The notes beneath the pieces were generated by a model that searched no databases, was not told the origin of the DNA, and saw only the letters and a program-made list of their open reading frames with translations. From Limisphaerales bacterium (GTDB taxonomy: Bacteria; Verrucomicrobiota; Verrucomicrobiia; Limisphaerales; UBA11358), in assembly GCA_003133815.1 (NCBI GenBank), contig PKZR01000377.1:1-41076 (forward strand): DNA of 41,076 nt. Reading direction: 5' to 3'. The translations under genes and the position numbers were made by a program. The first letter of the stretch is position 1. Every line of letters starts with the position of its first letter. This document shows, piece after piece, positions 2,133-40,035 of the stretch.

Positions 2133-5100
2133 TTATTCAGAGACGGAGACGAGCGTGTTCTTCCGGGTTTCCTCATTGACGCCATCCAGAATTCCTGCCG
2201 CCGCCGGCAGGATTGGACGCAAAATTTCCACGCGTGAATTCAAGCCGATGACGGTGTTGCGCGCTCCGACGGAAACCAACCGCCGATACCAGTCCATAAA
2301 CGCCCGGCTCACGACGATCTCCTCATCCCGGCCGCTAAGTCCCACAACCGGCTGCGAAGACGCCGTTGCGCAGAGAATCTGCGCGGCCACGGCGCGGGGC
2401 GGTCGTTCGCCGTTGATGGTGCGATTCCAAAATGGCAGCGCCGCCACTATTTCCTGGCTCAAAAGCAGCACCTCGGCACGTTGCGCGACGATGCAACCGT
2501 CGTCCGGCAACTGGCGGATAGCTTCGCCCGTCCAGTCACGCGCAAATTCCAAAAATTCAGGTTTGCTCAATGCAACTTCGCCGCCGAGCCGCCACGCAAC
2601 AGCATTGTGGGCGTCGGCCTGCACCAACTCGTTCAATTGTTGCAGCGCTTCTATCGGCCTGTTTTGTGCCGCAAGAAATTTTGCATAGTCCACTTTCAGT
2701 TCCGACAACCTTCCATTTTCCGTCAACCCGGCCTGGAAGGCTTTTTCTGCCCCGTCAGAGTCACCCAGTTTGAGCAGACTCATGGCCAGGCAATGATGCG
2801 GCGCGGCGGTATGGATTTCCTTGTTGATTGGGGCGAGGCTGCGCTGGTGGCGTTTCGCAAGGCAATGCCGCATCTGGTCGGCACCTTCACTGAACCGGCT
2901 GAGTTCAAGATACGACAGCCCAAGCGAGAAATGCAATGTGGCCGTCAATCCACCATGCATCCCGGCCAGCGGCGAGGTGAGAACGCGCACAACTTCGTCA
3001 AACCGCTTCGCCGCTGTCAGCCGCGCACAAAATTGCATCAGGAATGTCTCGCGAAGCTCAGGAACGATTTCGGTTGCAGGTTTCGTTAAGAGAGTATCGA
3101 AAGCCTCCTCGTAGCGCATCAACGCCCCGGCTTCTTGTCCCGACCGGGCCAGTTCCAGGCCCAGGTTCATCAACAAGTGTGGTTCGTCCGGCAATTCCTC
3201 AACGGCGCGTTTCAGGAGATTGAGGTTGCGTTCGATTTTGTTCCGGTCGCGGGTCACTTCGGCCGTGTATCCATGGTGAATGAGAGTTGCGTCGCCAATA
3301 CGGTTTTCCAGTCCCCATTCTGCGCGCTGCACTTCGATGCTGCTGAAAACCTGCTCGTGGACCCGCCCGACATAAAACAGGCCCGGCGCGTTGCGAAAAA
3401 ATCGCGGCACATAGGAACAACCATCCGCCTCGCGGCCCACGTCCACGATGGGAAGACGCCATGCCATTACAGCCGGATTGATCATGGCCAGTTTTAATTT
3501 ATCGAGGCCATCGGCGGATAATTCCTCGTCCGCATCCAGCACCAGCACCCAGTCGCCGGTGGCATGTTCCAAGGCCGCGTTGCGGGCGGCGCTGAAATCG
3601 TCGCACCAGGCAAAGGCATGGATTTTAGCGCCGAATTCCTTTGCAATTTCTACCGTGCGGTCCGTGGAGCCCGTGTCCACAACCACAATTTGTGATGCAA
3701 TCTCGCGGATGGATTTCAAACACTGTCCGAGAAATTTCTCTTCGTTTTTAACAATCAAGCAGACTGACAAGTTGAGGGTTGAGGGTTGAGAGTTGAGGGA
3801 CTCCGGCAGTTTGAGCCACTCCGGTCTGGCACCGCCTTTGAGGCGCTGGTTCAAGAATTTTCTTGCCGGTTTCCAGCCCGGGGCGATGCGGCGGGCGTGG
3901 TCGGCGCAAAGTTTGGCGGACTGGCCGTCGCCGACGGATTGCGCGATTTCTGCAAGCAACAAGAAGGCTTCCGGATGGAAAGGCCGACTGGCTAATGCAG
4001 ACAGTGCGGCTTCCCATGCAGCCCGGAATTTTTTTTGGCGGACCAGTTCCCGGGCCTCGGCCAGATGGCCGGACAGGGCGCACGGTGGCAGGGTGATTTT
4101 AGCCTTTGTGACCGTGCTGGTTTTTGTGGAAGACACTTGCTGCTGTGCAAGCTGGCCGGCACTCATACCAGCGCCGGCGAGTTCGTGGATGCGCCGTGCC
4201 ATGATCGGGGCGGAATTTTGCCAGGAACAAAATTGTTTTGCATGTTGGGCGGCTAGTTGTCCGCGCTGGCGTGTTTCGGCGGGTTTGGCAAATGCCTCGC
4301 GCAAGAACCGTCCGAGTGCGGCAACATCCGGTTCCAGCAGCCAGCCCGCACCGGCCAGCTTCATGCCGCTGATTTCGTGTCCGAATATCTTCCGGTCGGC
4401 AGGAATGCGCCACGCAAAAGTGTCGCGCACAAAATCGTCCGTCGCACCACCGGCGGTGACTATGACGGGCAGACCGGCGGCCATGGCTTCGAGCGCGGGC
4501 AAACCAAATCCTTCACCACGATATGGCAGCACCAGGCAGTCGCACGCCGTGTAAAGACCGGGCAGGGCATCCGGTGGAAGCTCCTGGTTCAGATATAGAA
4601 TTTCCGGCGCATTCGGCTGCAATTGCGCGGCGCGGATCTGCGATTCGAAGGTTTGCCCGGCATAAACCGTCTTGCCGCCAAAATCCTTGATGACGAGGCA
4701 GATGTCGTCTGCATCCGTGAAATTTTCCAGATAAGCTTTGAGCAGCAGGTCCGGCCCTTTGCGGAAGATTGTTCCGCCGACGAAGAGAAATTTGAATTTC
4801 TTTTGCGTGGCCAGTTTCATCGGCGCGACCTGCGGATGAAATTTTTTCAGGTCCACGCCATTGGGCACGACAACCACCTTTTCATCCGGCACACCGGATT
4901 CGACATAAACCCGGCGGACGTATTCGGAAGGCACCCAGAATTGATCAACGCTGGCAGAATCCTTCAACCATTGTTCCGGCAGCGATCCGAATTCCCAAGG
5001 CTGGATGACGACCAGTTTGCCGGTTTGCGGGCGCTTCCAATCCGGCGGCCAGGCGTGGCGGATGGTGACTGCGGCATCCTTTGAAGCGATTGCAGAGATT

Positions 5101-8081
5101 TCGCCGGCCAGATGTTTGAAATCAGGCGACGCCGATGCGCCGTTTGAAATTCGCTTTAAACAGATTTCGGGAGAAGATTGAAGCACACTGGTAAATTCAC
5201 GATTGACGTGCGACAGGCTGCCATGGTCGAGAAAGGATCCGATCCAGTCCACAATTGTGCTGCTAATTTTCAATGATGCGGTGTTGGAGGAACCCGTCTT
5301 TGCAATCGTGGCGGCCCGTTCGACATAATCAGGCCAGCAGTGTTTCAGGAATTTGGCATCCGCCGCCGGAAGCCGGCCGGCCGCTGCTGGATTTATTTCG
5401 GTCAAAGCTTCACTGCAAAATGCAATCTTCCATTCCAAGTCTTGCATTTGAAACAGAAGGTTCCATGTCGCAGCAGCCGGATTGAGCTTTTGATGCAAAC
5501 CCAGTCCTTCGATGAAAGCGGAACGCCGGACGAGGAAGCTCTGCGGAATTGCGTCCAAGATGTTTTCGCGCGCCGGCATCGTCAGTTTTTCCTGCCACTG
5601 GCGCGGCGACGGAAAAACGATGCCCACCTTGGATGACGAACGGATGATGTCCAGCATCGCCACGTCCCAGCCTGTTGACAACGGCGTGTTCCCATCAAAG
5701 AACATGACAAATGGTGAGGGGGAATTATCCACGGTCAAATTCAACTGCTCATTCCAGGTTTGCTGCGGGTGGCGTTCCATTACGTGAAGCCGTTTGATTT
5801 CATGACCGAATTCTTGCGCAATGGCCATCGTTTTCTTGTCATCATTCGCCGCCAGCAGAAAGATTTCACAATTCTTGTTGCGGATTGAAACCGGTTTCAA
5901 CTGGTTCAAGCATTTGCGCAGGGAAACAGTATCGCGCTGGGGTGGAACCACGATCACCAATTCAGGCTGTACTCCATCTTTGTCGCCGCTTGAGTTGCAC
6001 AACAACATTGCCTTGCCGCACGAAAAGAATTCGGAAGCGGCCCGTGGATTTTCCATCTGAAAAACGCCTTGCGGCCAGTGAATGCCGGCTTCGCCGAGAA
6101 TGCGCGCGTAGCCCTGTTTGCGGAGTTTCTCCCGGTCGCTCGCACCGCACATCGGCTTGAAGGAATCGGCGAAGTAATAATCGTCCAGAGGCAATGACCC
6201 AAAAATCGCCAGTTCGGCCTGCGTAGGAAATGCGGCGGCCCGGCCAAGGATGGGAGTGAAACCGCAATCCACATCCTCCAGGATTCGCTGCGACAATTCC
6301 GTCTTGCCATCGAGCAGGCCTGGTTTGGTGGCGCGGAACCAGTGCCAAAGATTTTGGAACAATGCCACACCTTCCTTGAACCGGCGTTGGCGGCGCATGG
6401 TCGCCTCGTCGAAACGAACCTCATCCAATACAGGGGTCACTTTGCCGTCTGGCTGACGGGTATAACCCAAGGTGGTGCCGACGGGCGCGACGAACGATTG
6501 TTCAACAAATGCCGGCGAACGCAGGAAGGCGTGGTAAAGATGTTCCGGTCGCCCGAATGATCCCAGATAATGCCGCACATCCAGCGATTCAAGAATTCGC
6601 GCCGCGGAACCTTCGCCCGTGAGCAAATAGCATCCAACCATGTGGGTACGGTTTGATTCCAAATCGAAGATGCGTTTCAACTGCGTCTGCGCGGAGGCGT
6701 TGTAACCGATGTCGCACAACCCGATGGCATCGCCCGATTCAAGCCATGGACGGAGGTAGTCGAGAACCTTTCGACGTTCTTCTGCGCTCCGGGCCTCGAT
6801 GCGGCTGGCGATCTCGGGGGAAAAAAGAAATTTGGCCAGCTGGAGCACCCGTTCCCGGGAATCGGTTTTTTCTTCGAGCGAAAAGGGCAGATGCCGCGCG
6901 CTTTCCGGCGCAATTCCGAAATGGGCGAGAATGGTTTTGACCGGCAGGGTGGAGCGGCGCACGAGCCAGTCAATCACGCCGTCAGCCGTTAATCCTCCCA
7001 GAGCCGCCAGGGCCGTGGCCTTACGGTTTATGTAGAGCGGTTTTATTTCCAGATCCAAACCCCGCACGTCCGACTCGCATTGTAGAATTTGTGCAAACAA
7101 TTCTCCTTCGCGCATAAATGCGCCGACCTTCCTCACGCCGCTTGCAAGATACTGGTCGCACGCCCAGGTGGCGAAGCGGGTCAGCACCGGACCGAGCAAA
7201 AGGGCGCCCATGCGTCCAAAACTTCCCTCGTCCGTATTTTCCGGAAAAGCACGCGCCGCCAACATGCGTAATGAATTTGCATTGAATACGGGATTTTGCC
7301 CGCCGAGCAGAAATTTTTCGCGCTCAAGGATTGTGTTGGTTTCCTGGGTGGCCTGCTGGTAATGGCATCCGCGCACGCCGGCTTTGCGGGCACCGACAAC
7401 GTCCGGCGCTGGATTGTCACCGATGTGGAGCATTTGATCAGCTTCAAGATTCAACGTTTTAAGTGCGTGCCGGAAAAGGTTGCCAGTGCCCTTGCACACG
7501 TCGGCGTCGCAAGAGGTCAACATTGCATCGAAAATTGACGGATCGAATTGATTGGCTAGCAGGATTCGGCGCAGATGGTCGCCCGAAAAATAAATGTCGG
7601 AGACAACCAAGACGCGCAAGCCGCGTTGCCGGAGATGGTGGATGAAGCCGGCCATGACCGGATTCAACATGCAAAGATCACTTTCCACACCGTGCTCGAT
7701 TTCAACTCCTGCAGCCGGGTCTGTGACGATCGAATCCATTTGCTGGTAGATTTCGCGGATGTGAATGTCTTCCAAGGTCGCATCCTTGAGCGCCTGACGT
7801 TCACGGGTCTTGTATTCCGCGAGACGTCGCAATGTTTCAAAATCATCGGCTGAAATCGTTGAGCGCAGCATCTCCTTTTGCCGCAGGCGGCGGCCCACTT
7901 CACGAAAGGCATCTACGGGTTTTGCGACCAGCCGCCAGACAAGTGTGTCAAAGAAATCGAAGGAAACGGCACGCACGCGACCGGAGCTCAACTCGATTAA
8001 TTTGTCGGCTCGGCACAGCGACTCGTCGTACTGCCACGATGACATCTGGTTCAAAGTGCAAATTTTGTTGTCGGTCGTCAT
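2133..8081 (-). CDS. giant multidomain protein: N-terminal HAD-like hydrolase region, degenerate GT2-like module, GT4 (group 1) glycosyltransferase, TPR, GT2 glycosyltransferase, C-terminal TPR repeats
   Basis: 1982-aa ORF. HAD motif: VSFDFFDTLVWR...HIGDNPAPDV. GT4 motif: FLFVGGTIFRKGPDLLL...PYRGEGFGLPALEAMAAGLPVIVT. GT2 motif: LSVCLIVKNEEKFLGQCLKSI...VVVDTGSTDRT...ARNAALEHATGDWVLVLDADEEL. TPR-like helical repeats flank the GT2 domain. Its ATG overlaps the stop of the upstream methyltransferase (ATGA at 8081..8078). Confidence 0.9.
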   Translation of the reverse strand: MTTDNKICTLNQMSSWQYDESLCRADKLIELSSGRVRAVSFDFFDTLVWRLVAKPVDAFREVGRRLRQKEMLRSTISADDFETLRRLAEYKTRERQALKDATLEDIHIREIYQQMDSIVTDPAAGVEIEHGVESDLCMLNPVMAGFIHHLRQRGLRVLVVSDIYFSGDHLRRILLANQFDPSIFDAMLTSCDADVCKGTGNLFRHALKTLNLEADQMLHIGDNPAPDVVGARKAGVRGCHYQQATQETNTILEREKFLLGGQNPVFNANSLRMLAARAFPENTDEGSFGRMGALLLGPVLTRFATWACDQYLASGVRKVGAFMREGELFAQILQCESDVRGLDLEIKPLYINRKATALAALGGLTADGVIDWLVRRSTLPVKTILAHFGIAPESARHLPFSLEEKTDSRERVLQLAKFLFSPEIASRIEARSAEERRKVLDYLRPWLESGDAIGLCDIGYNASAQTQLKRIFDLESNRTHMVGCYLLTGEGSAARILESLDVRHYLGSFGRPEHLYHAFLRSPAFVEQSFVAPVGTTLGYTRQPDGKVTPVLDEVRFDEATMRRQRRFKEGVALFQNLWHWFRATKPGLLDGKTELSQRILEDVDCGFTPILGRAAAFPTQAELAIFGSLPLDDYYFADSFKPMCGASDREKLRKQGYARILGEAGIHWPQGVFQMENPRAASEFFSCGKAMLLCNSSGDKDGVQPELVIVVPPQRDTVSLRKCLNQLKPVSIRNKNCEIFLLAANDDKKTMAIAQEFGHEIKRLHVMERHPQQTWNEQLNLTVDNSPSPFVMFFDGNTPLSTGWDVAMLDIIRSSSKVGIVFPSPRQWQEKLTMPARENILDAIPQSFLVRRSAFIEGLGLHQKLNPAAATWNLLFQMQDLEWKIAFCSEALTEINPAAAGRLPAADAKFLKHCWPDYVERAATIAKTGSSNTASLKISSTIVDWIGSFLDHGSLSHVNREFTSVLQSSPEICLKRISNGASASPDFKHLAGEISAIASKDAAVTIRHAWPPDWKRPQTGKLVVIQPWEFGSLPEQWLKDSASVDQFWVPSEYVRRVYVESGVPDEKVVVVPNGVDLKKFHPQVAPMKLATQKKFKFLFVGGTIFRKGPDLLLKAYLENFTDADDICLVIKDFGGKTVYAGQTFESQIRAAQLQPNAPEILYLNQELPPDALPGLYTACDCLVLPYRGEGFGLPALEAMAAGLPVIVTAGGATDDFVRDTFAWRIPADRKIFGHEISGMKLAGAGWLLEPDVAALGRFLREAFAKPAETRQRGQLAAQHAKQFCSWQNSAPIMARRIHELAGAGMSAGQLAQQQVSSTKTSTVTKAKITLPPCALSGHLAEARELVRQKKFRAAWEAALSALASRPFHPEAFLLLAEIAQSVGDGQSAKLCADHARRIAPGWKPARKFLNQRLKGGARPEWLKLPESLNSQPSTLNLSVCLIVKNEEKFLGQCLKSIREIASQIVVVDTGSTDRTVEIAKEFGAKIHAFAWCDDFSAARNAALEHATGDWVLVLDADEELSADGLDKLKLAMINPAVMAWRLPIVDVGREADGCSYVPRFFRNAPGLFYVGRVHEQVFSSIEVQRAEWGLENRIGDATLIHHGYTAEVTRDRNKIERNLNLLKRAVEELPDEPHLLMNLGLELARSGQEAGALMRYEEAFDTLLTKPATEIVPELRETFLMQFCARLTAAKRFDEVVRVLTSPLAGMHGGLTATLHFSLGLSYLELSRFSEGADQMRHCLAKRHQRSLAPINKEIHTAAPHHCLAMSLLKLGDSDGAEKAFQAGLTENGRLSELKVDYAKFLAAQNRPIEALQQLNELVQADAHNAVAWRLGGEVALSKPEFLEFARDWTGEAIRQLPDDGCIVAQRAEVLLLSQEIVAALPFWNRTINGERPPRAVAAQILCATASSQPVVGLSGRDEEIVVSRAFMDWYRRLVSVGARNTVIGLNSRVEILRPILPAAAGILDGVNEETRKNTLVSVSE

Positions 8082-8953
8082 GCTTGTCGGGTTTGGATGG
8101 TGAGTTGATTGAAAATGGCAGGACGTTGCAACACCGGGTTTGGTTTTGGCCTGGACTGGAGTCGATCCTGCAGTTCAATAATTTTCAGGTAGAGTTCCAG
8201 ACGGTTGCGCTCAAGCATTTCCAAAAGCGGACTGGAAGTGAAAGGACGCAGCAGCTCTGTCAGCCGGTCGACCCATGGCGCCGTGCGGCTGTAAATGATG
8301 CCAAGACCCAACACAACGGGGATGACTTCAAAACGGAGATCGGGACGGTGGGCAAGAAAATCCTCAATGGCCGTGCGAACGCCGTTGGCGGGACCGCCTT
8401 CGCGCAAGGCGAAAGAGATGCCGCCGCCCCGCAGACCTCCATTAATCATCCCGGGATTGTCAAGGGTGAGGCCAGTTTCACATGAGTAAGGTTGACGAAA
8501 TGGCAATGGGACCGCGCCGGGATTGTAATACATGTCGCGCCGGCCGCACGGCCAGCAGACATCGTGTTCAAACACCAGCAGCGGTTTGTCCCCGCGGGCC
8601 GCGGCGATCAAATCCAGTTCCGCACGCACCGTGAAATAATTATGGTCGCCATCAATGACATAGGCGTCGGCACCGGCCAGTGCCGGCAGGGCGCTGATGC
8701 TGGCATCCTGAATGAACTGGAAATGCGGATTGTCCCGGTTGGCGGCGATGAATTTGAATGCGTCGGGTTTCGGCGTGGGATCAATACTGATGAGCTTGCC
8801 GGCTGCTTGGATGGCAAAGGCGTGGAGTTCCCGTGTAAAGCCGCCGTATTCCGAGCCAATCTCAACGATCTGGCGCGCGCCAGCCAGCGCCAGTGCCGGA
8901 AGAATGATTTCGCCAAATAAAGTCAGGGAGTAGAGATAAGGGCTGGTTTTCAT
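8078..8953 (-). CDS. class I SAM-dependent methyltransferase (Methyltransf_24/CmcI-like)
   Basis: Motifs IVEIGSEYGGFT...LISIDP...YVIDGDHNYFTV, with a coiled C-terminus. The longest ORF starts at 9142 but would overlap the upstream gene by 185 nt. The ATG at 8953 (MKTSPYLY) lies 4 nt after the upstream stop. An ATG at 8968 is an alternative start. Confidence 0.8.
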   Translation of the reverse strand: MKTSPYLYSLTLFGEIILPALALAGARQIVEIGSEYGGFTRELHAFAIQAAGKLISIDPTPKPDAFKFIAANRDNPHFQFIQDASISALPALAGADAYVIDGDHNYFTVRAELDLIAAARGDKPLLVFEHDVCWPCGRRDMYYNPGAVPLPFRQPYSCETGLTLDNPGMINGGLRGGGISFALREGGPANGVRTAIEDFLAHRPDLRFEVIPVVLGLGIIYSRTAPWVDRLTELLRPFTSSPLLEMLERNRLELYLKIIELQDRLQSRPKPNPVLQRPAIFNQLTIQTRQA

Positions 8954-8957
8954 GCAA

Positions 8958-9869
8958 TCAATCTGCATTTTTGAATGACCGTGGAGAGATCTGCGGATAC
9001 GAGCGTGATTCATGATAAAAAGTTTCGCCGGAACCAAAACCAGCGGCTGGCAGCGCGGGAACGCGTGGGGATCCCGCCGACTTTTTGAGCACAAACGCCA
9101 TGAACCGATTTTCAAAATCAAAATCAACATCCACAACTTCAAAATGATCGTCGCAGGACGCGCAGCCGATGGCCAGCTCGTTCAAAAAACTCAAGTGTGC
9201 CTTGCTGGAATGATTTAGATACGGCAGCGGCAGCAGGGCAATAAGCAAACCCTTTTCGTTTAGAACTTCCCCCATCCGGCGCAGAAGCGCATGCAATTCA
9301 AGGCTGTGTTCCAGCTCATGACGGAAAAAGATAGCCTGGGCTTTCTGCCCAATGCGTTTGGTCCATCGCAAAAAGACTTCCGCGTTGCAACAATGCAAAG
9401 TGTGCGTGTCAAAATTGTAAGTCTGGCGCGCCAGTTCCACCCGATGAGTCGATGACTCACAACCCATGACTGCAAAGCCATGCTGACGCAGGCTTTCCAT
9501 CATTTCACCACGACCGGCACCAAAATGAAAAATGGAACCTTTCGCCGCATGCAATCGTGATTCGTATTGCCTTACAATGGCTTCATAATTTGCTTCCGCC
9601 CATAATGCGTCGGTTTCGAATTCATCTGGAAGAGCGGTTTTGTCAGATTTTACGGGCAACGGGTGTTCGCAAAGAGTGGCTGGTACCGAACTGTCTCCGG
9701 AATCTGGTGAATTCATAAATTGTTTCCGTGTGAGAAGGTTGGCGGCGCTCATAAATTTCCATATTCGTTTCTTCTTTACGGGCGGACCGATTTGCATCGG
9801 CCCGCCCGAGGAAGGAGCCAGCGGTCCCGTCCTATGGACGGACGAAATTCGCTGACCATTTACTGACAC
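8958..9869 (-). CDS. class I SAM-dependent methyltransferase; start uncertain
   Basis: Motif IFHFGAGRGEMMESLRQHGFAVMGCE...IFFRHELEHS...LNEKGLLIALLP. The coordinates are the maximal ORF, which starts with GTG. The first roughly 40 codons coincide with strong RNA hairpins, so a downstream ATG is more likely (9797, 9752 or 9716). Confidence 0.7.
   Translation of the reverse strand: MSVNGQRISSVHRTGPLAPSSGGPMQIGPPVKKKRIWKFMSAANLLTRKQFMNSPDSGDSSVPATLCEHPLPVKSDKTALPDEFETDALWAEANYEAIVRQYESRLHAAKGSIFHFGAGRGEMMESLRQHGFAVMGCESSTHRVELARQTYNFDTHTLHCCNAEVFLRWTKRIGQKAQAIFFRHELEHSLELHALLRRMGEVLNEKGLLIALLPLPYLNHSSKAHLSFLNELAIGCASCDDHFEVVDVDFDFENRFMAFVLKKSAGSPRVPALPAAGFGSGETFYHESRSYPQISPRSFKNAD
9779..9808 (-). 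other. 13-bp GC-rich hairpin with a GCAA tetraloop on the minus-strand RNA
   Basis: The minus-strand RNA is CGGGCGGGCCGAU-GCAA-AUCGGUCCGCCCG. The single non-Watson-Crick position is G-U on the minus-strand RNA but A-C on the plus strand. A second hairpin lies at 9824..9843. Confidence 0.45.
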
Positions 9870-9981
9870 ATATCCGACACGACTCGTGGCGCGTGGTCAG
9901 TCACGCCATTTGTTACATGCCAGATTGCGTCAGAATCTGTTGTCCGGCCGGTTTTGCGGCCGCAAAATTTTTCTTCGACTT

Positions 9982-10239
9982 TCATAAACCTTTTGAAATT
10001 GTTATTCCCGGTTTTGCAGGCGTTGATTGAGGCAGTTTTGGCAGCGCCACATTTTGACGGGTGAGCGCCTGCTCGTTGCTGCATTGAATTTCTTCGTAAA
10101 CTTCCCGGCGATGCACCGGCACTTCCGCTGGTGCTTCGATGCCGATTTTCACGACGTCGCCCTCAACGCGCACAATCTTCACGTGAATGCGTCCGTCAAT
10201 CACTATGCTTTCGCCGGATTTGCGCGAGAGGATTAGCAT
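9982..10239 (-). CDS. csrA: carbon storage regulator CsrA (FliW-partnered type with C-terminal extension)
   Basis: MLILSRKSGESIVIDGRIHVKIVRVEGDVVKIGIEAPAEVPVHRREVYEEI plus a roughly 30-aa tail. I chose the ATG at 10239 rather than the track start at 10308, which would overlap fliW. Confidence 0.9.
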   Translation of the reverse strand: MLILSRKSGESIVIDGRIHVKIVRVEGDVVKIGIEAPAEVPVHRREVYEEIQCSNEQALTRQNVALPKLPQSTPAKPGITISKGL

Positions 10240-10249
10240 GATCGGGTGA

Positions 10250-10696
10250 TTAGGCGGCCCCGTTGACCGGCAGCGGATGTTGAACGGAGTATTCGACAGC
10301 GTTGGCAATGACGACCTGCTTGGCCACGCCGGTGTTCCGGTTGATAACGATCGGGCCCTTCAAATTGACCGTGGCGTTGCGGGGACCGCGCAATGTGACG
10401 ATATTGTAAACCACTGCGTCATCTGGCGAAGTCAATCCAAGAAAATCCACGTCCGCCTGGGGAATGTCAGGACGGTAGTCCGGCGCAAAATAGAGCGGTT
10501 CGATGACGATGAACGCCAGCGAGGGATTGTTTTTCACCTGCAGCCAGCGGAAAGGCGCTTCGGCAGGTTTGGCGATGAGCAGGAAATTTTTGATATGCTC
10601 AAATCCAAGCAACCCCGCTGGCATCCGCACTTCGCAGCAAGCGGCGGTCTCGGTCGTTTCCGGTTCCTCTATTTCTATCACGTTTGCACTATTCAT
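10250..10696 (-). CDS. fliW: flagellar assembly factor FliW
   Basis: 148 aa. Motifs ...MPAGLLGFEHIKNFLLI...PFRWLQ...SLAFIVIEP...DYRPDI...TVNLKGPIVIN. It lies immediately upstream of csrA. Confidence 0.9.
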   Translation of the reverse strand: MNSANVIEIEEPETTETAACCEVRMPAGLLGFEHIKNFLLIAKPAEAPFRWLQVKNNPSLAFIVIEPLYFAPDYRPDIPQADVDFLGLTSPDDAVVYNIVTLRGPRNATVNLKGPIVINRNTGVAKQVVIANAVEYSVQHPLPVNGAA

Positions 10697-10711
10697 GGTA
10701 AATTTTGTTTA

Positions 10712-10726
10712 GCAACGCCTGTGCCA
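10712..10726 (-). promoter_or_regulatory. sigma-54 promoter candidate upstream of fliW (perfect TGGCAC-N5-TTGC)
   Basis: The minus strand reads TGGCACaggcgTTGCtaaac. The -12 C is at 10712 and the fliW ATG at 10696, 16 nt downstream. Confidence 0.6.
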
Positions 10727-10909: not shown

Positions 10910-11851
10910 TTAAGGCAGTGAATTCAATACAGATTGCTGAAGCTGCAAGATTTGCGAACTGGTCTGGAGAGCGACTTGGTAGGCATTTTGCGCCTGGCTT
11001 AACTGCGTCAGTGTCTGTGCCAAATCCGCGCCGGCAACATTTGAAAGGCTCTGCTGCAATCCGGTTTGTTGTGTTGTGGCAAATGAAGCCGCTGCCTGCA
11101 ACCGCGACTGCGTTGCGCCATTATTTGCAACCTGCCAGATAATGTTGTCGTCGTCCTTGCTCAAATTCGGCGCGTCGATTGTTGTGATGGCGCTTGTGTT
11201 TCCCGATTGCAGATTATTTTGCAGCGAAATTAAATGGTTGAACAAATCCGTGCCGTAGCGGCTGTCGCTTACCACACCGCGCGCGCCGGAACCGCTGTTA
11301 TTTTGGCCGGGCACATTTACAGCCAGGGAAGTATTGTCCGCGATTTCACTCTGCGAAACGCTGGTGTTGCCCTGATACGTGACGGCAGTGACGTTGCCAT
11401 TGGCATCGGTGCTTACCGTAAAAGGGGCCTGACTGGAGTTTGTGCCGCCAAAAACATACTGGCTCCCATTCTGGGTGTTCATTAACTGTGCGGCTTCTTG
11501 GATCAACTGGGTGACTTGGGTGGCGTCCGCCTGTAGCTGCGCCGGCGTGCTGGTGCCGTCCGCAGAGGTGGCGATTTCACTGGCTTTTTCCGTAATGGTT
11601 TGAAGCGAGGTCAGGGCATTGCCAGTGACGGTTGCATTGGTTTGCAGTGTGGAAATGTTTTGTGAGTATTGAGTAACGGCGCTGTTTTGGGCCTGCAAAT
11701 TCAGTGCCTGCGCCATGCCCGCCGGATTGTCTTCCGGAGCTGAAATGGTCTGACCGGTCGAAGCCTGGTTCTGAAGCTGGTATTCCTTCGCGGACAGGAG
11801 ATTCAGCTTGGTGACCATTGAATCCGTGTATGAGGTGCCGGCGATGCGCAT
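10910..11851 (-). CDS. flgL: flagellar hook-filament junction protein FlgL (HAP3)
   Basis: 313 aa. MRIAGTSYTDSM...STGQTISAPEDNPAGMAQAL...QYVFGGTNS..APF, with a flagellin-like N and C terminus. It follows flgK. Confidence 0.85.
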   Translation of the reverse strand: MRIAGTSYTDSMVTKLNLLSAKEYQLQNQASTGQTISAPEDNPAGMAQALNLQAQNSAVTQYSQNISTLQTNATVTGNALTSLQTITEKASEIATSADGTSTPAQLQADATQVTQLIQEAAQLMNTQNGSQYVFGGTNSSQAPFTVSTDANGNVTAVTYQGNTSVSQSEIADNTSLAVNVPGQNNSGSGARGVVSDSRYGTDLFNHLISLQNNLQSGNTSAITTIDAPNLSKDDDNIIWQVANNGATQSRLQAAASFATTQQTGLQQSLSNVAGADLAQTLTQLSQAQNAYQVALQTSSQILQLQQSVLNSLP

Positions 11852-11880: not shown

Positions 11881-13305
11881 TCAACCGGTCTTCATATTCA
11901 CCACCGTCGTCAACATCTCGTTGACGGTGGTGATGATTTGCGCCGAGGTTTCGTAGGCCTTTTGGAAGGTGATTAAATTCGCCATTTCCTGTTCCAACGA
12001 AACGCCGCTGACCGAGTCGCGCTGGTTCAACAACATGGTGTTGACGGAATTATAATTGTTCACCTGATCGTTGGCATTGGACAGCGCATTGCCAAAATTC
12101 TCAACGTCCAGAGAGCAGGCGCTGCTAAAGGTCTGATTGTTGAGCGCGCTTACGGACTGGCTTCCCAGCTGCGCCAGCGCCAGCGCGACCGAGTTGTCGC
12201 CGGTGGCATTGGCAACGCCTGCGGCCTGAACCTGCGAAGGATCGGTGAGCAAAGCGGAATTCACGCCGATGTTGCCTGATCCGGTGCCGGTGAAAAAGTC
12301 TGCCCCGGTATTGCCGTTGAGATCGTATCCATTTTTGTAAATGGAGTTGACCTGCGTTATGAGCGTAGAGGCCATCGTATTCAAATTGCTGCGCAGGGTG
12401 CCCAGCGCCCCGTCGCGTGCGTCAATCGTTCCCTGGATGGAACCGCCGGAAAGAGTGAGCGGCGTCGCAGAAGTGGCGGTTTGGACCTGCAACTGGCCGT
12501 TGCCCGGATCATAAGTTGCCAGCGTGTCCGAGAGCTTGCTGCCGGAAACCAGTTGCTGCCCGCCGATGCTGACGCTGATGGTCCCGTCAGAATTTGTGGT
12601 TGTTTGAGTGTTTGTCAATTTTGCGAGATTTTCCAAATCCTGTTCTCGAGAATCAACCATGTCATTGGCCGTGCCGCCGGATGCCGTGGCCTTGGCAATC
12701 TGGCCGTTGAGGCTGGTAATGTCGGAGAGAAGCTGGTTGGCAGAGGTGACGTCATTGCCGACAGATGTGTTAAGCTGGCCATTCAGCACATTTAGATTTT
12801 GAGAAGCCTGGTTGAAACTGGACGCGAGCGACTGCGCCGAGTTGACGAGCGATTGACGCGCCGTCGGGTCGGTGGGGCTGGTCGCCACGCTTTGAAAGGC
12901 GTTGAACAAGTTGTTCAACTGGTCGGACAAATCGGGTGAGCTTGTCGTGCTGGTTGTTGTGCTGCCCGTGCCCGACGCACTCAAATTGAGAAACTCACCC
13001 AATTGTGTCTGGGCGTTTTCCAGCGCGGTCTGCTGCGAATTCCAATAGCCGCCGACGCTTGCCTCGGACTGAATCTGGCTGTTAAGCAACGGGTCGCTGA
13101 CCTGCTGAATCGAAGATGCATCAACACCGGTGCCCTGCAGGCCGAGATTGGTGGGCGTGGGAGTGCTCGTTTGAAGCTGAACCGTTTGCCGGGTATAGGC
13201 AGGATTATTCGCATTCGCGAGATTTTGGCCTGTCACTTCCAAGCTCAACTCCTCCGCCATCATCGAGCGGGCTCCAAGATTCAACGTGTTGAAAAGTCCG
13301 AGCAT
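11881..13305 (-). CDS. flgK: flagellar hook-associated protein FlgK (HAP1)
   Basis: 474 aa. MLGLFNTLNLGARSM...GQNLANANNPAYTRQ at the N-terminus and SGVSLEQEMANLITFQKAYETSAQIITTVNEML at the C-terminus. Confidence 0.9.
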   Translation of the reverse strand: MLGLFNTLNLGARSMMAEELSLEVTGQNLANANNPAYTRQTVQLQTSTPTPTNLGLQGTGVDASSIQQVSDPLLNSQIQSEASVGGYWNSQQTALENAQTQLGEFLNLSASGTGSTTTSTTSSPDLSDQLNNLFNAFQSVATSPTDPTARQSLVNSAQSLASSFNQASQNLNVLNGQLNTSVGNDVTSANQLLSDITSLNGQIAKATASGGTANDMVDSREQDLENLAKLTNTQTTTNSDGTISVSIGGQQLVSGSKLSDTLATYDPGNGQLQVQTATSATPLTLSGGSIQGTIDARDGALGTLRSNLNTMASTLITQVNSIYKNGYDLNGNTGADFFTGTGSGNIGVNSALLTDPSQVQAAGVANATGDNSVALALAQLGSQSVSALNNQTFSSACSLDVENFGNALSNANDQVNNYNSVNTMLLNQRDSVSGVSLEQEMANLITFQKAYETSAQIITTVNEMLTTVVNMKTG

Positions 13306-17651: not shown

Positions 17652-18401
17652 CTATGAAGTGCCGCCCAATGAGGTGATGGTCTGCCCCATGCGGTCATTC
17701 TGCATCTGGAGCACTTTCTGGTTGGCTTCAAAAATCCGCATGCTGTCGATCAATCCGCTCATTTCACCAGTCGGCGAACTATTTGGGGCCTCGAGAAATC
17801 CCTGGCGAACCGCCGTGTCAGCGGTAACTGGCGTAGGATTCATGTTTGGCTGGTCGGCGATCAGATAGCCATAGTCTGTGGGGGTTAGCTGGCCAGGATT
17901 TGAGAATGTCACGACCTGCAAGTGACCTTTGATGTCCCCGCCTTGGCTGATTTGGCCGGTTGGCGAAATGCTGATGGCTGCTGGATTTCCCGGATTAAAT
18001 TGCACCGGACCGCCATTGCCCAACACGGGATAGCCTTCCTTGGTAACGAGCTGGCTTTTGGCATTGAGTTGAAATTCGCCGTCACGGGTATAGGCGCGGT
18101 CACCATTGGGCAGTTGCACCGTGAAGAAGCCGGAGCCTTCAACGGCGAAGTCCAATGATCCGCCGGTGGGACGAAGTTGTCCCTGCTGAAAGCTGGTGGA
18201 GGCCACGGCTACCGGAATCATAAAATTTGCTGAAGTGTTGCCATTACCGTCCAGCGGAGAAGCTGCGGCAACATCTGCAAACGAAACGTCTTGCCTGCGG
18301 AAACCGGGCGTGGTTCCGGCTGAGAGATTCTGGGTAATCATCTCCTGCCAGCGTGATTGGGCATTCATTGCGGCAGCGGCTTGGTACAGACTTACGTTCA
18401 T
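17652..18401 (-). CDS. flgF: flagellar proximal rod protein FlgF
   Basis: 249 aa. MNVSLYQAAAAMNAQSRWQEMITQNLSAGTTPGFR...GFLEAPNSSPTGEMSGLIDSMRIFEANQKV. It lies upstream of flgG. Confidence 0.85.
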   Translation of the reverse strand: MNVSLYQAAAAMNAQSRWQEMITQNLSAGTTPGFRRQDVSFADVAAASPLDGNGNTSANFMIPVAVASTSFQQGQLRPTGGSLDFAVEGSGFFTVQLPNGDRAYTRDGEFQLNAKSQLVTKEGYPVLGNGGPVQFNPGNPAAISISPTGQISQGGDIKGHLQVVTFSNPGQLTPTDYGYLIADQPNMNPTPVTADTAVRQGFLEAPNSSPTGEMSGLIDSMRIFEANQKVLQMQNDRMGQTITSLGGTS

Positions 18402-18416
18402 GTGCTGGATTGAGAA

Positions 18417-18431
18417 GCAGCGATTGTGCCA
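18417..18431 (-). promoter_or_regulatory. sigma-54 promoter candidate upstream of flgF (TGGCAC-N5-CTGC)
   Basis: The minus strand reads TGGCACaatcgCTGCttctc. The -12 C is at 18417 and the flgF ATG at 18401, 16 nt downstream. Confidence 0.55.
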
Positions 18432-18489
18432 TCACTCAAAACGGTTGGCTTTGATGGATAATTGTCCGTTCCCAATGATTCTGCATGGA

Positions 18490-18538
18490 AAAATTTGCCG
18501 GCAGCTTTGCAAAATTTGCCGGGTGCGTTTTTTGCCCC
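18490..18538. repeat. direct repeats AAAATTTGCCGG x2 plus a third TTTTTTGCCCC copy; candidate enhancer (UAS) sites
   Basis: The 12-mer occurs at 18490..18501 and 18511..18522, in 21-nt phase. A related copy lies at 18528..18538. All lie 60-110 nt upstream of the flgF sigma-54 promoter on the minus strand. Confidence 0.5.
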
Positions 18539-18596
18539 GTTCGTAGAAGAAATCTTCTTCAGGGATAAAAATGCATGTGATGGAAATTTCATAAAT

Positions 18597-18869
18597 TCAA
18601 ATTTTCCCCACTGGTGAAGCTTCATATGCACACGTGAGTTCAACGACCTGTCCGCAACTGCACTGGATTCGGATGGATGACACGCGATCACCATCGCGTT
18701 GCAAAGTCACACGTGGCAGGCATTGGCCGCTTGAGATCGATTTGCCGGTGCGACCCAGTGGATGAAATGCCTGTAGCATTTCATTTTGATTGACGATGGT
18801 GACATGAAGATTCGACCGGTTCCGGCCAGAAACGGTGGCATTACTTAATGGCACAAATGGATCGTTCAT
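18597..18869 (-). CDS. small hypothetical protein (90 aa) with a C-terminal CxCG...C motif, translationally coupled to motB
   Basis: Its ATG at 18869 overlaps the motB stop at 18866. The sequence ends ...PRVTLQRDGDRVSSIRIQCSCGQVVELTCAYE.... I recognise no family. Confidence 0.5.
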   Translation of the reverse strand: MNDPFVPLSNATVSGRNRSNLHVTIVNQNEMLQAFHPLGRTGKSISSGQCLPRVTLQRDGDRVSSIRIQCSCGQVVELTCAYEASPVGKI

Positions 18870-21347: not shown

Positions 21348-21350
21348 AAT

Positions 21351-21590
21351 TTATCTTTTACCGGGTTGAATCAACGATGTTGCAACCGGACGTTTCATGC
21401 GGCGTTGATCAAGTGAATCGCGTAGGCCTTGCAGCCACACGCGGGTCCACCAACGTGTAAGAATCGTGGCTGCCAGGGCCGCAGCACAGGCACGCCAAAA
21501 TGCCGCTGGCCAAGGACTGCTGCTTGCCAGACCAAAGCCTGCACCGATGAGAAATCCCACGATGGAGCCAAGAATAATCAATGCTTTCAT
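21351..21590 (-). CDS. small hypothetical membrane protein (79 aa, two TM helices)
   Basis: Starts with ATG and stops 3 nt before the fliA ATG. MKALIILGSIVGFLIGAGFGLA...AAFWRACAAALAATILTRWW. It is preceded by a sigma-54-like promoter. I recognise no family. Confidence 0.5.
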   Translation of the reverse strand: MKALIILGSIVGFLIGAGFGLASSSPWPAAFWRACAAALAATILTRWWTRVWLQGLRDSLDQRRMKRPVATSLIQPGKR

Positions 21591-21611
21591 TCGATGTCTG
21601 AGAGCTGTTTA

Positions 21612-21626
21612 GCAAACTCTTTGCCA
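21612..21626 (-). promoter_or_regulatory. sigma-54 promoter candidate upstream of orf79-fliA (TGGCAA-N5-TTGC)
   Basis: The minus strand reads TGGCAAagagtTTGCtaaac. It shares the TTGCTAAAC -12 region with the fliW promoter. The orf79 ATG lies 22 nt downstream of the -12 C. Confidence 0.45.
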
Positions 21627-21666
21627 GCCTCAGAAAGACGTGCCGAAACTTGGAGGTTTTGCGGAA

Positions 21667-39996: not shown

Positions 39997-40020
39997 GCTA
40001 CTTTTTCCTGACGGTGTTAA

Positions 40021-40035
40021 GCAGCATTGGTGCCA
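40021..40035 (-). promoter_or_regulatory. sigma-54 promoter candidate upstream of flgB (TGGCAC-N5-CTGC)
   Basis: The minus strand reads TGGCACcaatgCTGCttaacaccgtcAGGAaaaagtagcATG. The -12 C is at 40021 and the flgB ATG at 39996. Confidence 0.6.

What the first reader, a model, noticed from the sequence alone, without database searches (positions are those of the whole stretch)
2133..10239. A methyltransferase-methyltransferase-megaglycosyltransferase operon occupies the slot where flagellin follows fliW-csrA
In Bacillus-type loci the order is flgK-flgL, then fliW-csrA, then the flagellin gene, which is the mRNA target of CsrA. Here csrA is followed by two SAM methyltransferases and the giant GT. 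These are tightly packed, with a 4-nt gap and an ATGA overlap. No flagellin gene is present anywhere in the window. The first methyltransferase visibly prefers T-ending codons (TTT, CAT, GAT, AAT), unlike the flagellar genes. That hints at a separately acquired cassette. The arrangement suggests the FliW-CsrA partner switch may also gate expression of a filament-modification module with a methylated glycan.
Basis: partly seen in the sequence, partly recalled or inferred. Interest (0 to 1): 0.65.

Follow-up and report, generated by a model that had tools for sequence, protein, structure and literature searches.

The report
Flagellin glycosylation operon behind csrA
In this peat-soil Verrucomicrobium the place after fliW-csrA, where relatives keep a flagellin gene, holds a decayed flagellin remnant, a conserved folded RNA not found in Rfam 15, and three enzymes that most likely put a methylated sugar chain on flagellin.

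Summary
On the minus strand the order is flgK-flgL-fliW-csrA, a 229-nt spacer, methyltransferase MT1, methyltransferase MT2, then a 1,982-aa multidomain glycosyltransferase. The window holds no flagellin gene.

The module is not a recent insert. Giant-GT homologues follow fliW-csrA in about 35 Verrucomicrobial genomes, and MT1 orthologues are always the first gene after csrA. The GT's C-terminal GT2-TPR part resembles GmaR, the Listeria flagellin O-glycosyltransferase.

The "flagellin slot" reading is close to literal. Many relatives have csrA-flagellin-GT, and the window keeps a 41-codon relic whose ATG overlaps the csrA stop.

CsrA gating through the leader is not supported. In relatives, stand-alone flagellin genes carry a sigma-28 promoter and leader hairpins with GGA in the loops. 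The MT1 leader has none of these.

Instead it holds a ~100-nt structured RNA at 9762-9862, with 88 distinct copies, strong covariation and no Rfam match. It always lies between csrA or flagellin and the glycosylation genes. Its invariant strand CUGGCUCCUUCC is complementary to the GGA/SD site of flagellin mRNAs.

Coupling to fliW-csrA is most likely by co-transcription from a sigma-54 promoter. The RNA's own role is inferred only.

The parts
10711..10726 (-). Sigma-54-type promoter TGGCACAGGCGTTGCT, 15 nt upstream of fliW. It is the nearest recognisable promoter upstream of the cassette.
   Evidence: Exact match to TGGCAC-N5-YTGCW. Three other exact matches exist: two lie just upstream of flgF (18416-18431) and flgB (40020-40035), and one lies inside fliK (32210-32225). 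A sigma-54 activator gene lies at 40182-41057.
10250..10696 (-). fliW
   Evidence: PF02623, E 8.7e-36; NCBIfam FliW models.
9982..10236 (-). csrA (84 aa)
   Evidence: PF02599, E 3.9e-22; TIGR00202 at 79.8 bits, above its cut-off.
9860..9985 (-). Flagellin relic: a 41-codon ORF whose ATG overlaps the csrA stop (ATGA) and which ends 2 nt before the RNA motif's first helix. It is probably the decayed remains of a csrA-adjacent flagellin gene.
   Evidence: The frame stays open in 9 relatives, with in-frame indels. Substitutions are spread evenly over codon positions (385:393:374), so there is no constraint on a protein. A profile of flagellin 3' ends hits the relics collinearly at 4-10 bits, against a maximum of 4.7 in 800 shuffles. 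Positions 9939-9919 read QILTQSG, compared with flagellin QNILVQSGT.
9762..9862 (-). Conserved structured RNA motif. P1 is 9857-9851 paired with 9822-9816. P2 is 9843-9836 paired with 9832-9824. The invariant single strand CUCCUUCC is 9817-9810. P3 is 9807-9796 paired with 9791-9780, with a GCAA loop.
   Evidence: The spacer is 89% identical to relatives whose GT is 82% and 62% identical. RNAalifold and the CM R1 recover the fold. There are 98 instances, 88 distinct. 99.2% of cells are paired and 8 pairs show compensatory changes. The native leader folds with z = -6.4. Rfam gives no match.
8958..9752 (-). MT1, a class I SAM-dependent methyltransferase (264 aa)
   Evidence: Methyltransf_23, E 1.8e-8. 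The family has 54 proteins, and every one that carries a taxon label is from Verrucomicrobial MAGs apart from one evident mislabel. It is always the first gene ~230 nt after csrA.
8078..8953 (-). MT2, a Methyltransf_24-type SAM methyltransferase (291 aa)
   Evidence: PF13578, E 9.6e-9. There is a weak PDB hit to a putative O-methyltransferase, 8c9s, E 0.017. Homologous domains occur alone or fused in L009, L010, L015 and L018.
2133..8081 (-). Giant multidomain glycosyltransferase (1,982 aa). Domains: HAD-like 7332-7976, GT4 4209-5072, GmaR-like GT2 3135-3776, TPR 2442-3116.
   Evidence: Pfam domains. PDB: residues 1436-1626 match GmaR at E 2.9e-28, SunS at 1.7e-18, and residues 39-361 match Bcs3 at 1.3e-10. 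Across 10 homologues the DxD (D1516, D1518) and the GT4 E1190/E1198 are invariant. Full-length homologues are 46-82% identical.

Best explanation
Positions 2133-10726 are the distal end of a late flagellar operon of a Limisphaerales-type Verrucomicrobium. The order is: sigma-54 promoter, fliW, csrA, a decayed flagellin relic, a ~100-nt structured RNA, MT1, MT2, and a giant HAD-GT4-GT2-TPR enzyme.

Shown:
- the gene content and order;
- conservation of the GT downstream of fliW-csrA across the clade;
- the GmaR-like protein-glycosyltransferase domain;
- the covarying RNA structure and its fixed position;
- the absence of canonical CsrA sites in the MT1 leader, while such sites exist on flagellin leaders of relatives.

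Inferred:
- The three enzymes glycosylate flagellin. The GmaR-like GT2-TPR part would attach the first sugar to Ser/Thr of flagellin. The GT4 and HAD parts would extend or process the chain. MT1 and MT2 would methylate it.
- The cassette is expressed by read-through from fliW-csrA, so it is tied to the flagellar programme by transcription and not by CsrA binding.
- The RNA leader modulates that read-through, or translation of the first glycosylation gene. Its invariant strand CUGGCUCCUUCC resembles an anti-Shine-Dalgarno sequence and is complementary to the GGAAGGAG site of sigma-28 flagellin mRNAs. This may couple it to the flagellin/CsrA circuit.
For: Synteny:
- A scan with the GT alignment returned 80 loci. 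About 35 of them include the fliW-csrA region, and in all of those the GT lies downstream.
- Flagellin sits between csrA and the GT in 8 loci.

Enzyme function:
- The best solved homologue of the GT2 domain is GmaR, followed by the protein S-glycosyltransferase SunS.
- Relatives carry CTP_transf_3 cytidylyltransferases, an epimerase and FkbM and other methyltransferases in the same slot.

Transcription:
- An exact sigma-54 promoter lies before fliW and none lies in the spacer.
- No flagellin-type sigma-28 promoter is present on the minus strand.
- No minus-strand terminator lies between csrA and MT1.
- Peat metatranscriptome contigs span 9722-9945 and 9637-9856, joining relic, motif and MT1. 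MT1, MT2, csrA and fliW are all covered.

RNA motif:
- Searches support the fold and its spread.
- Every instance with readable context lies downstream of csrA, flagellin or a mini-flagellin, and upstream of a glycosylation gene.
- Loci found independently through the MT1 protein also carry it.

Complementarity:
- The predicted duplex between the seed and the flagellin start region is -25.9 kcal/mol in L004 and -22.7 in L009, the two loci with both the motif and stand-alone flagellins.
- It is -9 to -10 in the motif-less L006, L025 and L039, and the window-wide background mean is -9.9.
Against: - No flagellin of this organism is in hand, so neither its glycosylation nor its leader can be checked.
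- No biochemical evidence exists for any of the three enzymes. MT1 and MT2 have only generic methyltransferase matches.
- The RNA contigs are assembler contigs of low depth, carry no strand information, and could include DNA carry-over. None bridges 9945-10015, so continuity from csrA itself is not shown.
- The correlation between seed and flagellin start region rests on 2 loci against 3.
- csrA-adjacent flagellins that are followed by the motif (L020, L030) have no GGA leader, so pairing within one mRNA is excluded.
- The HAD motif I reads DFFDT instead of DxDxT, so phosphatase activity is uncertain.
Confidence: 0.6

Rival explanations
1. CsrA binds the 9753-9981 leader and represses translation of the cassette until FliW sequesters CsrA, as it does for flagellin mRNA.
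For: The cassette follows csrA directly. The window-type P2 stem contains AGGACGGGAC. A GGA lies 8 nt before the MT1 ATG.
Against: In this clade, canonical sites are hairpins with A(N)GGA(U/C)G in the loop plus GACUCA-N-GGAA(G/A)GAGU at the AUG. Nothing like them is in the leader. The GGA before the ATG is missing from L008 and L004. GGA in P2 is not conserved across motif types. Several relatives have no leader at all between csrA and the GT.
Confidence: 0.1
2. The conserved RNA is only a structural punctuation mark. It would act as a 3' stabiliser, partial terminator or insulator at the end of the csrA/flagellin message, with no link to the CsrA-flagellin circuit. Its complementarity to flagellin start regions would be a by-product of a CU-rich strand meeting a generic Shine-Dalgarno sequence.
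For: P3 is a strong GC hairpin. It is followed by a run of at least 4 T in 13 of 86 copies, for example GGTTTTTTTAAAC in L030. The reverse complement GGAAGGAGCCAG-ATG occurs as an ordinary SD plus start codon in unrelated metagenome contigs.
Against: A terminator does not explain a 12-nt strand that is invariant in all 88 distinct copies, nor the covarying P1/P2 junction. Most copies, the window's included, lack a U tract. RNA contigs run through the motif into MT1. The window's 40 flagellar genes have no SD, so GGAAGGAG is not a generic feature of this genome.
Confidence: 0.25
3. The cassette is a horizontally acquired general polysaccharide (capsule, EPS or LPS) cluster that happens to lie beside the flagellar genes and does not act on flagellin.
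For: MT1 has the lowest GC and the highest T3 of 31 genes. The HAD part resembles the capsule polymerase Bcs3, and the GT4 part resembles cell-wall glycosyltransferases.
Against: The position after fliW-csrA(-flagellin) is conserved in about 35 genomes, with GT identity down to about 50%. MT1's position is likewise conserved. MT2 and the GT have host-like codon usage. The MT1 bias recurs in orthologues whose GC tracks the host, from 0.50 to 0.64. The best solved homologue of the GT2 domain is a flagellin glycosyltransferase.
Confidence: 0.07

Closest known systems
Bacillus subtilis flgK-flgL-fliW-csrA-hag locus and the Hag-FliW-CsrA partner switch (established knowledge; Mukherjee et al. 2011)
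   Same: The order flgN-flgK-flgL-fliW-csrA is the same. Relatives have flagellin directly after csrA. In relatives, sigma-28-driven flagellin mRNAs carry GGA hairpins, one of them at the start codon.
   Different: This is a diderm (FlgH and FlgI are present). The fliW operon has a sigma-54 promoter. In the window the flagellin after csrA is reduced to a relic and the slot continues into glycosylation genes. csrA-adjacent flagellins of relatives often overlap the csrA stop and lack GGA leaders.
GmaR of Listeria monocytogenes, a flagellin O-GlcNAc transferase with GT2 and TPR domains that also acts as MogR anti-repressor (PMC9638930, PMC3150276)
   Same: Residues 1436-1626 match the GmaR GT domain at E 2.9e-28. 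The DxD is conserved and TPR repeats follow.
   Different: Here the module is the C-terminal third of a 1,982-aa fusion with HAD-like and GT4 domains. There is no MogR system. The sugar and acceptor sites are unknown.
Flagellin glycosylation islands (Campylobacter/Helicobacter pse and Maf genes, Pseudomonas fgt, Clostridioides difficile CD0240-0244, Caulobacter FlmG); established knowledge
   Same: A glycosyltransferase and variable sugar-modifying genes (methyltransferases, cytidylyltransferases, epimerases) lie next to flagellin and flagellar genes, with strong variation between lineages.
   Different: The enzymes are fused into single proteins, nearly 2,000 aa here and 2,943 aa as called in one relative, with stop-to-stop frames beyond 4,000 codons in others. 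The island is placed after csrA, behind a dedicated RNA element. I found no paper on flagellin glycosylation in Verrucomicrobia.
Bcs3, the multi-enzyme capsule polymerase of Haemophilus influenzae type b (PDB 8a0c, 9h50)
   Same: Residues 39-361 match its central region at E 1.3e-10. Both are large single chains that combine transferase and HAD-type domains.
   Different: Only this one region is similar. The target here is presumably a protein, not a capsule polymer. HAD motif I deviates (DFFDT).
Anti-Shine-Dalgarno RNA elements: the icaR 3'UTR UCCCC motif of Staphylococcus aureus and C-rich seeds of RsaE/RoxS-type sRNAs (recalled from my own knowledge, not tested here)
   Same: A short, invariant, single-stranded CU-rich strand is flanked by stable hairpins and is complementary to a G-rich ribosome-binding or CsrA site.
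   Different: There is no sequence or structure homology and Rfam gives nothing. The position between csrA/flagellin and glycosylation genes is fixed. It is unknown whether it acts within its own mRNA or on other mRNAs.

Membership tests
Bacillus-type fliW-csrA-flagellin locus | fliW and csrA adjacent, downstream of flgK-flgL | tested here: met
   Pfam and NCBIfam hits and the coordinates.
Bacillus-type fliW-csrA-flagellin locus | An intact flagellin gene immediately downstream of csrA | tested here: not met
   Only a 41-codon relic is present, with no constraint on its protein sequence. The feature is met in 8 relatives.
Bacillus-type fliW-csrA-flagellin locus | A flagellin mRNA leader with CsrA sites in this organism | not testable with these tools
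   The flagellin gene of this organism is not on the contig. Relatives' stand-alone flagellins have such leaders.
CsrA-repressed mRNA leader | Two or more GGA motifs presented in hairpin loops, one overlapping the ribosome-binding site | tested here: not met
   The MT1 leader has no loop-presented GGA, and the GGA at -8 is absent from the two relatives aligned there. The clade's own flagellin leaders serve as positive controls.
CsrA-repressed mRNA leader | Physical binding of CsrA | not testable with these tools
   Needs an EMSA or footprint.
GmaR-like flagellin glycosyltransferase | A GT2 (GT-A) catalytic domain with DxD, similar to GmaR | tested here: met
   E 2.9e-28 to 22ao over 190 residues. 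D1516 and D1518 are invariant.
GmaR-like flagellin glycosylltransferase | TPR repeats C-terminal to the GT domain | tested here: met
   TPR_16, TPR_14 and TPR_19 hits at residues 1760-1832.
GmaR-like flagellin glycosyltransferase | Transfers sugar to flagellin Ser/Thr | not testable with these tools
   Needs an enzyme assay or flagellin mass spectrometry.
Flagellin glycosylation island | Glycosyltransferase and sugar-modifying genes linked to flagellin or flagellar genes across relatives | tested here: met
Intrinsic (Rho-independent) terminator, considered for P3 | A GC-rich hairpin directly followed by a U tract | tested here: not met
   In the window P3 is followed by GUAAAGAAG. Only 13 of 86 copies have a run of at least 4 T.
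Sigma-54 promoter, considered for the invariant CTGGCTCC... | GG and GC elements with the fixed TGGCAC-N5-TTGC spacing | tested here: not met
   The organism's own promoters match exactly. The motif has GG in place of GC at -12, and the nearest GC is 2 nt out of register. G-U pairs and compensatory changes point to RNA instead.
Any Rfam 15 family | A covariance-model match at or near the gathering score | tested here: not met
   No hit at gathering score in the window. With E up to 10 there are only trivial hairpin matches.
Recently acquired foreign cassette | Atypical composition of the whole cassette | tested here: not met
   MT2 and the GT are host-like. Only MT1 deviates, and mildly. Its orthologues show the same trait in each host.
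Recently acquired foreign cassette | Closest homologues outside the clade, or a patchy position | tested here: not met
   Full-length GT homologues and all MT1 homologues that carry a credible taxon label are Verrucomicrobial; the only out-of-clade GT hit is a partial match (18% of the query) in a Fibrobacteria MAG. The homologues lie in the same position. The protein search is word-based, so distant donors could be missed.

The most novel reading that the evidence does not exclude
The 9762-9862 element would be the founding member of a new riboregulator class specific to flagellar loci of Verrucomicrobia. It would be a leader, or an sRNA derived from a 3'UTR, whose invariant strand GCUGGCUCCUUCC pairs with the GGAAGGAG(U)CAGC hairpin at the start codon of sigma-28 flagellin mRNAs, which is the same site CsrA would bind. 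Pairing would open P1. Two outcomes are possible. It could repress or de-repress flagellin translation in competition with CsrA. Or it could let the amount of free flagellin mRNA set read-through into the glycosylation genes, matching enzyme supply to substrate.
Probability: 0.2. Interest if true: 0.85.

Novelty: new variant of a known kind. Interest (0 to 1): 0.6.

Why it matters
Flagellin glycosylation islands and the FliW-CsrA-flagellin switch are well known, but mostly from Firmicutes, Campylobacterota and Proteobacteria.

This case shows a whole clade of soil and peat Verrucomicrobia that has three distinctive features:
- It fuses its flagellin-modifying enzymes into giant proteins.
- It places them directly behind csrA.
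- It separates them from csrA or flagellin by a strongly conserved, covarying RNA that Rfam 15 does not contain.

The RNA carries an invariant strand complementary to the GGA-loop (CsrA-type) site of flagellin mRNAs. This gives a concrete, testable route by which filament synthesis, CsrA control and filament glycosylation could be coordinated at the RNA level.

The locus also documents decay of a csrA-adjacent flagellin gene, from full length through a ~96-aa mini-flagellin to a 41-codon relic. Cultured Limisphaera isolates carry the motif, and a full-length GT homologue is present in Fontisphaera persica, so experiments are feasible.

Tried and rejected
- Rfam, at gathering score on the window and at E up to 10 on the spacer: nothing meaningful.
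- Sigma-54 promoter reading of CTGGCTCC...: rejected after finding the organism's own exact TGGCAC-N5-YTGCT promoters, and because the helices covary with G-U pairs.
- Flagellin-type sigma-28 promoter (TCAAGT-N15-GCCGATAA, defined from relatives): none on the minus strand of the window.
- Intrinsic terminator between csrA and MT1: none on the minus strand. P3 lacks a U tract in most copies.
- The 41-codon ORF as a conserved micro-protein: rejected, because substitutions are even over codon positions.
- Independent significance of the relic's similarity to flagellin, using a relic-only nhmmer profile against all loci: only marginal, L096 at E 0.014. A targeted profile of flagellin 3' ends with shuffles gave modest support.
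- An in-window target for the seed: no start region in the window pairs better than background.
- More specific functions for MT1 and MT2: NCBIfam and PDB give only generic or weak hits.
- Locating the organism's own flagellin: not on the contig or its extensions. I did not attempt a linkage-free search.
- My first motif alignment (A3) had a coordinate typo and was redone as A4.
Full report
WHAT IS THERE

The window is almost entirely one flagellar supercluster on the minus strand. It runs from a sigma-54 activator gene (40182-41057) through flgBC, fliE-J, fliK, flgDE, fliL-R, flhBA, flhF, fliA, motAB, flgFG, flgA, flgH, flgI, a rod-binding flgJ and flgN to flgK (11881-13305) and flgL (10910-11851). 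It then continues with fliW (10250-10696) and csrA (9982-10236).

After csrA comes a 229-nt spacer, then three genes:
- MT1 (8958-9752), Methyltransf_23.
- MT2 (8078-8953), Methyltransf_24.
- A 1,982-aa protein (2133-8081) with HAD-like, GT4, GT2 and TPR domains.

MT2 could alternatively start at an ATG at 8968.

No flagellin gene is present. Only FlgL matches Flagellin_N/C, and only FlgL matches an HMM I built from 22 flagellins of relatives, at E 0.025. The same contig from other samples extends ~10 kb past the GT into unrelated genes: FGE-sulfatase, a DUF4435/AAA pair and a LamG protein.

WHO HAS IT

Full-length homologues of the giant protein (46-82% identical) come from Verrucomicrobiae MAGs and from Limisphaera and Fontisphaera isolates.

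A genome scan with an alignment of ten of them returned 80 loci. I mapped the window's proteins and flagellin onto these loci.
- In about 35 loci that reach far enough upstream, the GT lies downstream of flgK-flgL-fliW-csrA.
- The conserved core is the C-terminal ~1,040 residues (GT4-TPR-GT2-TPR). The N-terminal parts vary.

Four arrangements occur:
- (a) csrA-flagellin-GT. The flagellin ATG often overlaps the csrA stop.
- (b) csrA followed directly by the GT, with flagellin genes 5-10 kb further on.
- (c) csrA, then a ~96-aa flagellin-like ORF, then cytidylyltransferase and other genes, then the GT.
- (d) The window type: csrA, a ~230-nt spacer, MT1 (with or without MT2), then the GT.

The variable genes are cytidylyltransferases (CTP_transf_3), an epimerase/dehydratase, an RGP-like protein, a hexapeptide-transferase domain, and methyltransferases of families 21, 23, 24 and 25. 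This is the make-up of a flagellin glycosylation island.

WHAT THE ENZYMES LOOK LIKE

The best solved relative of residues 1436-1626 is GmaR, the Listeria flagellin O-GlcNAc transferase (E 2.9e-28). Next is SunS, a peptide S-glycosyltransferase. Residues 39-361 match the capsule polymerase Bcs3. The GT4 part matches MshA-type enzymes.

The DxD of the GT2 domain and the two glutamates of the GT4 domain are invariant in ten homologues. HAD motif I reads DFFDT.

MT1 and MT2 give only generic methyltransferase matches.

My inference: the GmaR-like GT2-TPR part glycosylates flagellin, the other domains extend or trim the glycan, and the methyltransferases methylate it. None of this is shown.

WAS THE CASSETTE ACQUIRED SEPARATELY?

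MT1 is compositionally the most extreme of 31 genes:
- GC 0.498 and T3 0.30.
- 68% T-ending F/H/D/N/Y codons against 48% in the flagellar pool, p = 0.003.
- The margin over fliH and fliK is small.
- MT2 and the GT are indistinguishable from flagellar genes.

The 54 MT1 homologues found are all from this clade where labelled. On four independent contigs MT1 is the first gene about 230 nt after csrA. MT1 orthologues show the same slight T-ending excess over their neighbours, while their GC follows each host from 0.50 to 0.64.

This is a long-resident gene with a gene-specific bias, not a recent import.

THE FLAGELLIN SLOT

The spacer begins with a 41-codon ORF (9860-9985). Its ATG overlaps the csrA stop, exactly as flagellin and mini-flagellin starts do in relatives.
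- The frame is open in nine relatives, with in-frame indels. Substitutions fall evenly on the three codon positions (385:393:374), so the peptide is not under selection.
- nhmmer aligns the spacer with the last ~85 nt of flagellin genes in L030 and L020.
- A profile of twelve flagellin 3' ends hits the relics collinearly at 4-10 bits. The best of 800 shuffles scores 4.7.
- Positions 9939-9919 read QILTQSG, in a different frame from the ORF. Flagellins read QNILVQSGT at the matching place.

I read this as the decayed remnant of a csrA-adjacent flagellin gene, with moderate confidence.

THE CONSERVED RNA

The spacer is more conserved than the genes around it. It is 89% identical to L008 and L004, whose GTs are 82% and 62% identical, and it contains a ~90-nt near-identical block.

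A profile of the spacer finds the core in some twenty more genome loci, always on the coding strand. RNAalifold gives three helices:
- P1 (CCAGYG/CRCUGG) encloses hairpin P2.
- An invariant single strand CUCCUUCC follows.
- Then comes a GC-rich hairpin P3 with an A/U-rich tail.

Counts from the covariance model:
- 22 copies in the genome loci.
- 49 more in metagenome loci fetched with a 20-nt pattern.
- 29 more in the remaining loci, including those found independently through the MT1 protein.
- Of these, 98 were extracted for the tally (two end-truncated copies were left out), and 88 are distinct.

On 47 distinct sequences, 99.2% of cells pair, against 95.0% in shuffles and 27-45% when partners are slid. 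Eight pairs carry compensatory changes. G-U pairs are frequent, which fixes the strand.

In the window the motif is 9762-9862, and the whole leader folds with z = -6.4. Rfam 15 has no match.

In every copy with readable context, the upstream neighbour is csrA, flagellin or a mini-flagellin. The downstream neighbour is a glycosylation-type gene that starts a few tens of nucleotides after P3. One genome has three tandem copies (L005; the same locus appears as L119).

HOW THE CASSETTE IS PROBABLY EXPRESSED

The evidence points to read-through from fliW-csrA:
- Exact sigma-54 promoters (TGGCAC-N5-YTGCT) sit just upstream of fliW, flgF and flgB, and a fourth exact match lies inside fliK. None is in the spacer.
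- No flagellin-type sigma-28 promoter is on the minus strand.
- No minus-strand terminator follows csrA.
- P3 lacks a U tract here and in most copies.
- Peat metatranscriptome contigs cover fliW, csrA, MT1 and MT2. Two of them (9722-9945 and 9637-9856) run from the relic or motif into MT1.

The RNA data have limits. The contigs are low-depth and unstranded, and none bridges csrA to the relic.

IS CsrA THE GATE?

Relatives provide a positive control. Their stand-alone flagellin genes have textbook sigma-28 promoters and ~140-nt leaders. Those leaders carry a covarying hairpin that presents A(N)GGA(U/C)G in its loop, and a second hairpin, GACUCA-N-GGAA(G/A)GAGU, directly before the AUG.

The MT1 leader has nothing comparable:
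- Its GGA triplets lie in the relic or inside the P2 stem.
- The one at -8 is absent from the two relatives aligned there.
- GGA is not a conserved feature of the motif.

Only binding assays can exclude it.

A DIFFERENT LINK TO THE CIRCUIT

The invariant strand, with the 3' half of P1 (GCUGGCUCCUUCC), is the complement of the flagellin start-codon hairpin AGGAAGGAGUCAGC.

Predicted duplex energies:
- -25.9 kcal/mol in L004 and -22.7 in L009. These are the only two loci that hold both the motif and stand-alone flagellins.
- -9 to -10 for flagellins of the motif-less L006, L025 and L039, which read GGAAAGAG.
- -9.9 as the mean over the window.

None of the window's 40 flagellar genes has a Shine-Dalgarno sequence, so GGAAGGAG is unusual in this genome.

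Caveats:
- The sample is tiny.
- The same 12-mer complement occurs as an ordinary SD in unrelated organisms.
- Flagellins followed by the motif in the same mRNA have no GGA leader, so any pairing would have to be between different mRNAs.

I therefore give the riboregulator idea about 0.2.

VERDICT

The finding is real. Both the acquired-cassette idea and the CsrA-leader idea are unsupported.

The module is a clade-typical flagellin glycosylation island, which is a known kind in an unstudied phylum. I found no paper on it. The new element is the conserved RNA between csrA or flagellin and the glycosylation genes.

Noticed in passing
L007:6925-7215, L013:6934-7224, L017:7402-7698, L019:5491-5787 (also L097, L114, L151): ORFs of 95-98 aa overlap the csrA stop. 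They keep the flagellin N-terminus (MIINxN) and the last ~50 residues of flagellin (ENLTAA...AMLAQAN...LLQQ) but lack the middle. The ratio of synonymous to non-synonymous single changes is 316:355, which suggests purifying selection. These may be secreted mini-flagellins that still engage FliW or FliS.
   Followed up: partly
L005:7672-7778, 7948-8054, 8145-8251 (same locus as L119): Three tandem copies of the RNA motif lie between csrA and the first glycosylation gene. Each is preceded by a small GCGG...CCGC hairpin.
   Followed up: no
window 10711-10726, 18416-18431, 32210-32225, 40020-40035 (minus strand): Exact sigma-54 promoter matches lie in front of fliW, flgF and flgB, and one lies inside fliK. 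A one-mismatch site at 21611-21626 lies in the 320-nt gap between flhF and fliA.
   Followed up: partly
window 21348-21666: No flhG/MinD-type gene lies between flhF and fliA, where many flagellar clusters have one. The gap holds no ORF of 80 aa or more.
   Followed up: no
window, start regions of about 40 flagellar genes: The start codons are preceded by A/U-rich sequence (for example AAAUUAUG) with essentially no Shine-Dalgarno motif. Stand-alone flagellin genes of relatives carry GGAAGGAG or GGAAAGAG.
   Followed up: partly
L004:22390-22550, L006, L009, L022, L025, L027, L039, L058, L072 (flagellin upstream regions): There is a conserved flagellin leader family: a sigma-28 promoter TCAAGT-N15-GCCGATAA, then ~140 nt with several hairpins that present GGA in their loops. 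This looks like a CsrA-regulated leader that could be modelled as an RNA family of its own.
   Followed up: partly
window 18398-18694 (minus strand): A 98-aa ORF between motB and flgF has no Pfam match. Small unannotated ORFs lie at the same place in L202 and L204. It may be a small flagellar accessory protein.
   Followed up: no
L045:89-13111, L062:1472-15688, L056, L064 and others: Stop-to-stop frames containing the GT core reach 4,300-4,700 codons in some relatives. The flagellar-locus GT is therefore fused to many more domains there.
   Followed up: no
record titles of L004, L005, L008, L009, L014, L020, L035, L048 and others: Several MAGs that carry this Verrucomicrobial flagellar/GT locus are labelled Bifidobacteriaceae, Saccharimonadales, Limnocylindria, Pseudomonadales and so on in their public records. 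These are probably taxonomic mislabels or bin contamination.
   Followed up: no
window 7952-7966 (GT residues 40-46): HAD motif I reads S-F-D-F-F-D-T and is invariant in 10 homologues. The canonical second Asp (DxDxT) is replaced by Phe, so the domain may not be a standard phosphatase.
   Followed up: no
L001:14110-16295 (beyond the window start): A DUF4435 plus AAA_15/AAA_21 gene pair (OLD/Gabija-like architecture) lies about 5 kb downstream of the GT. It may be a defence system.
   Followed up: no
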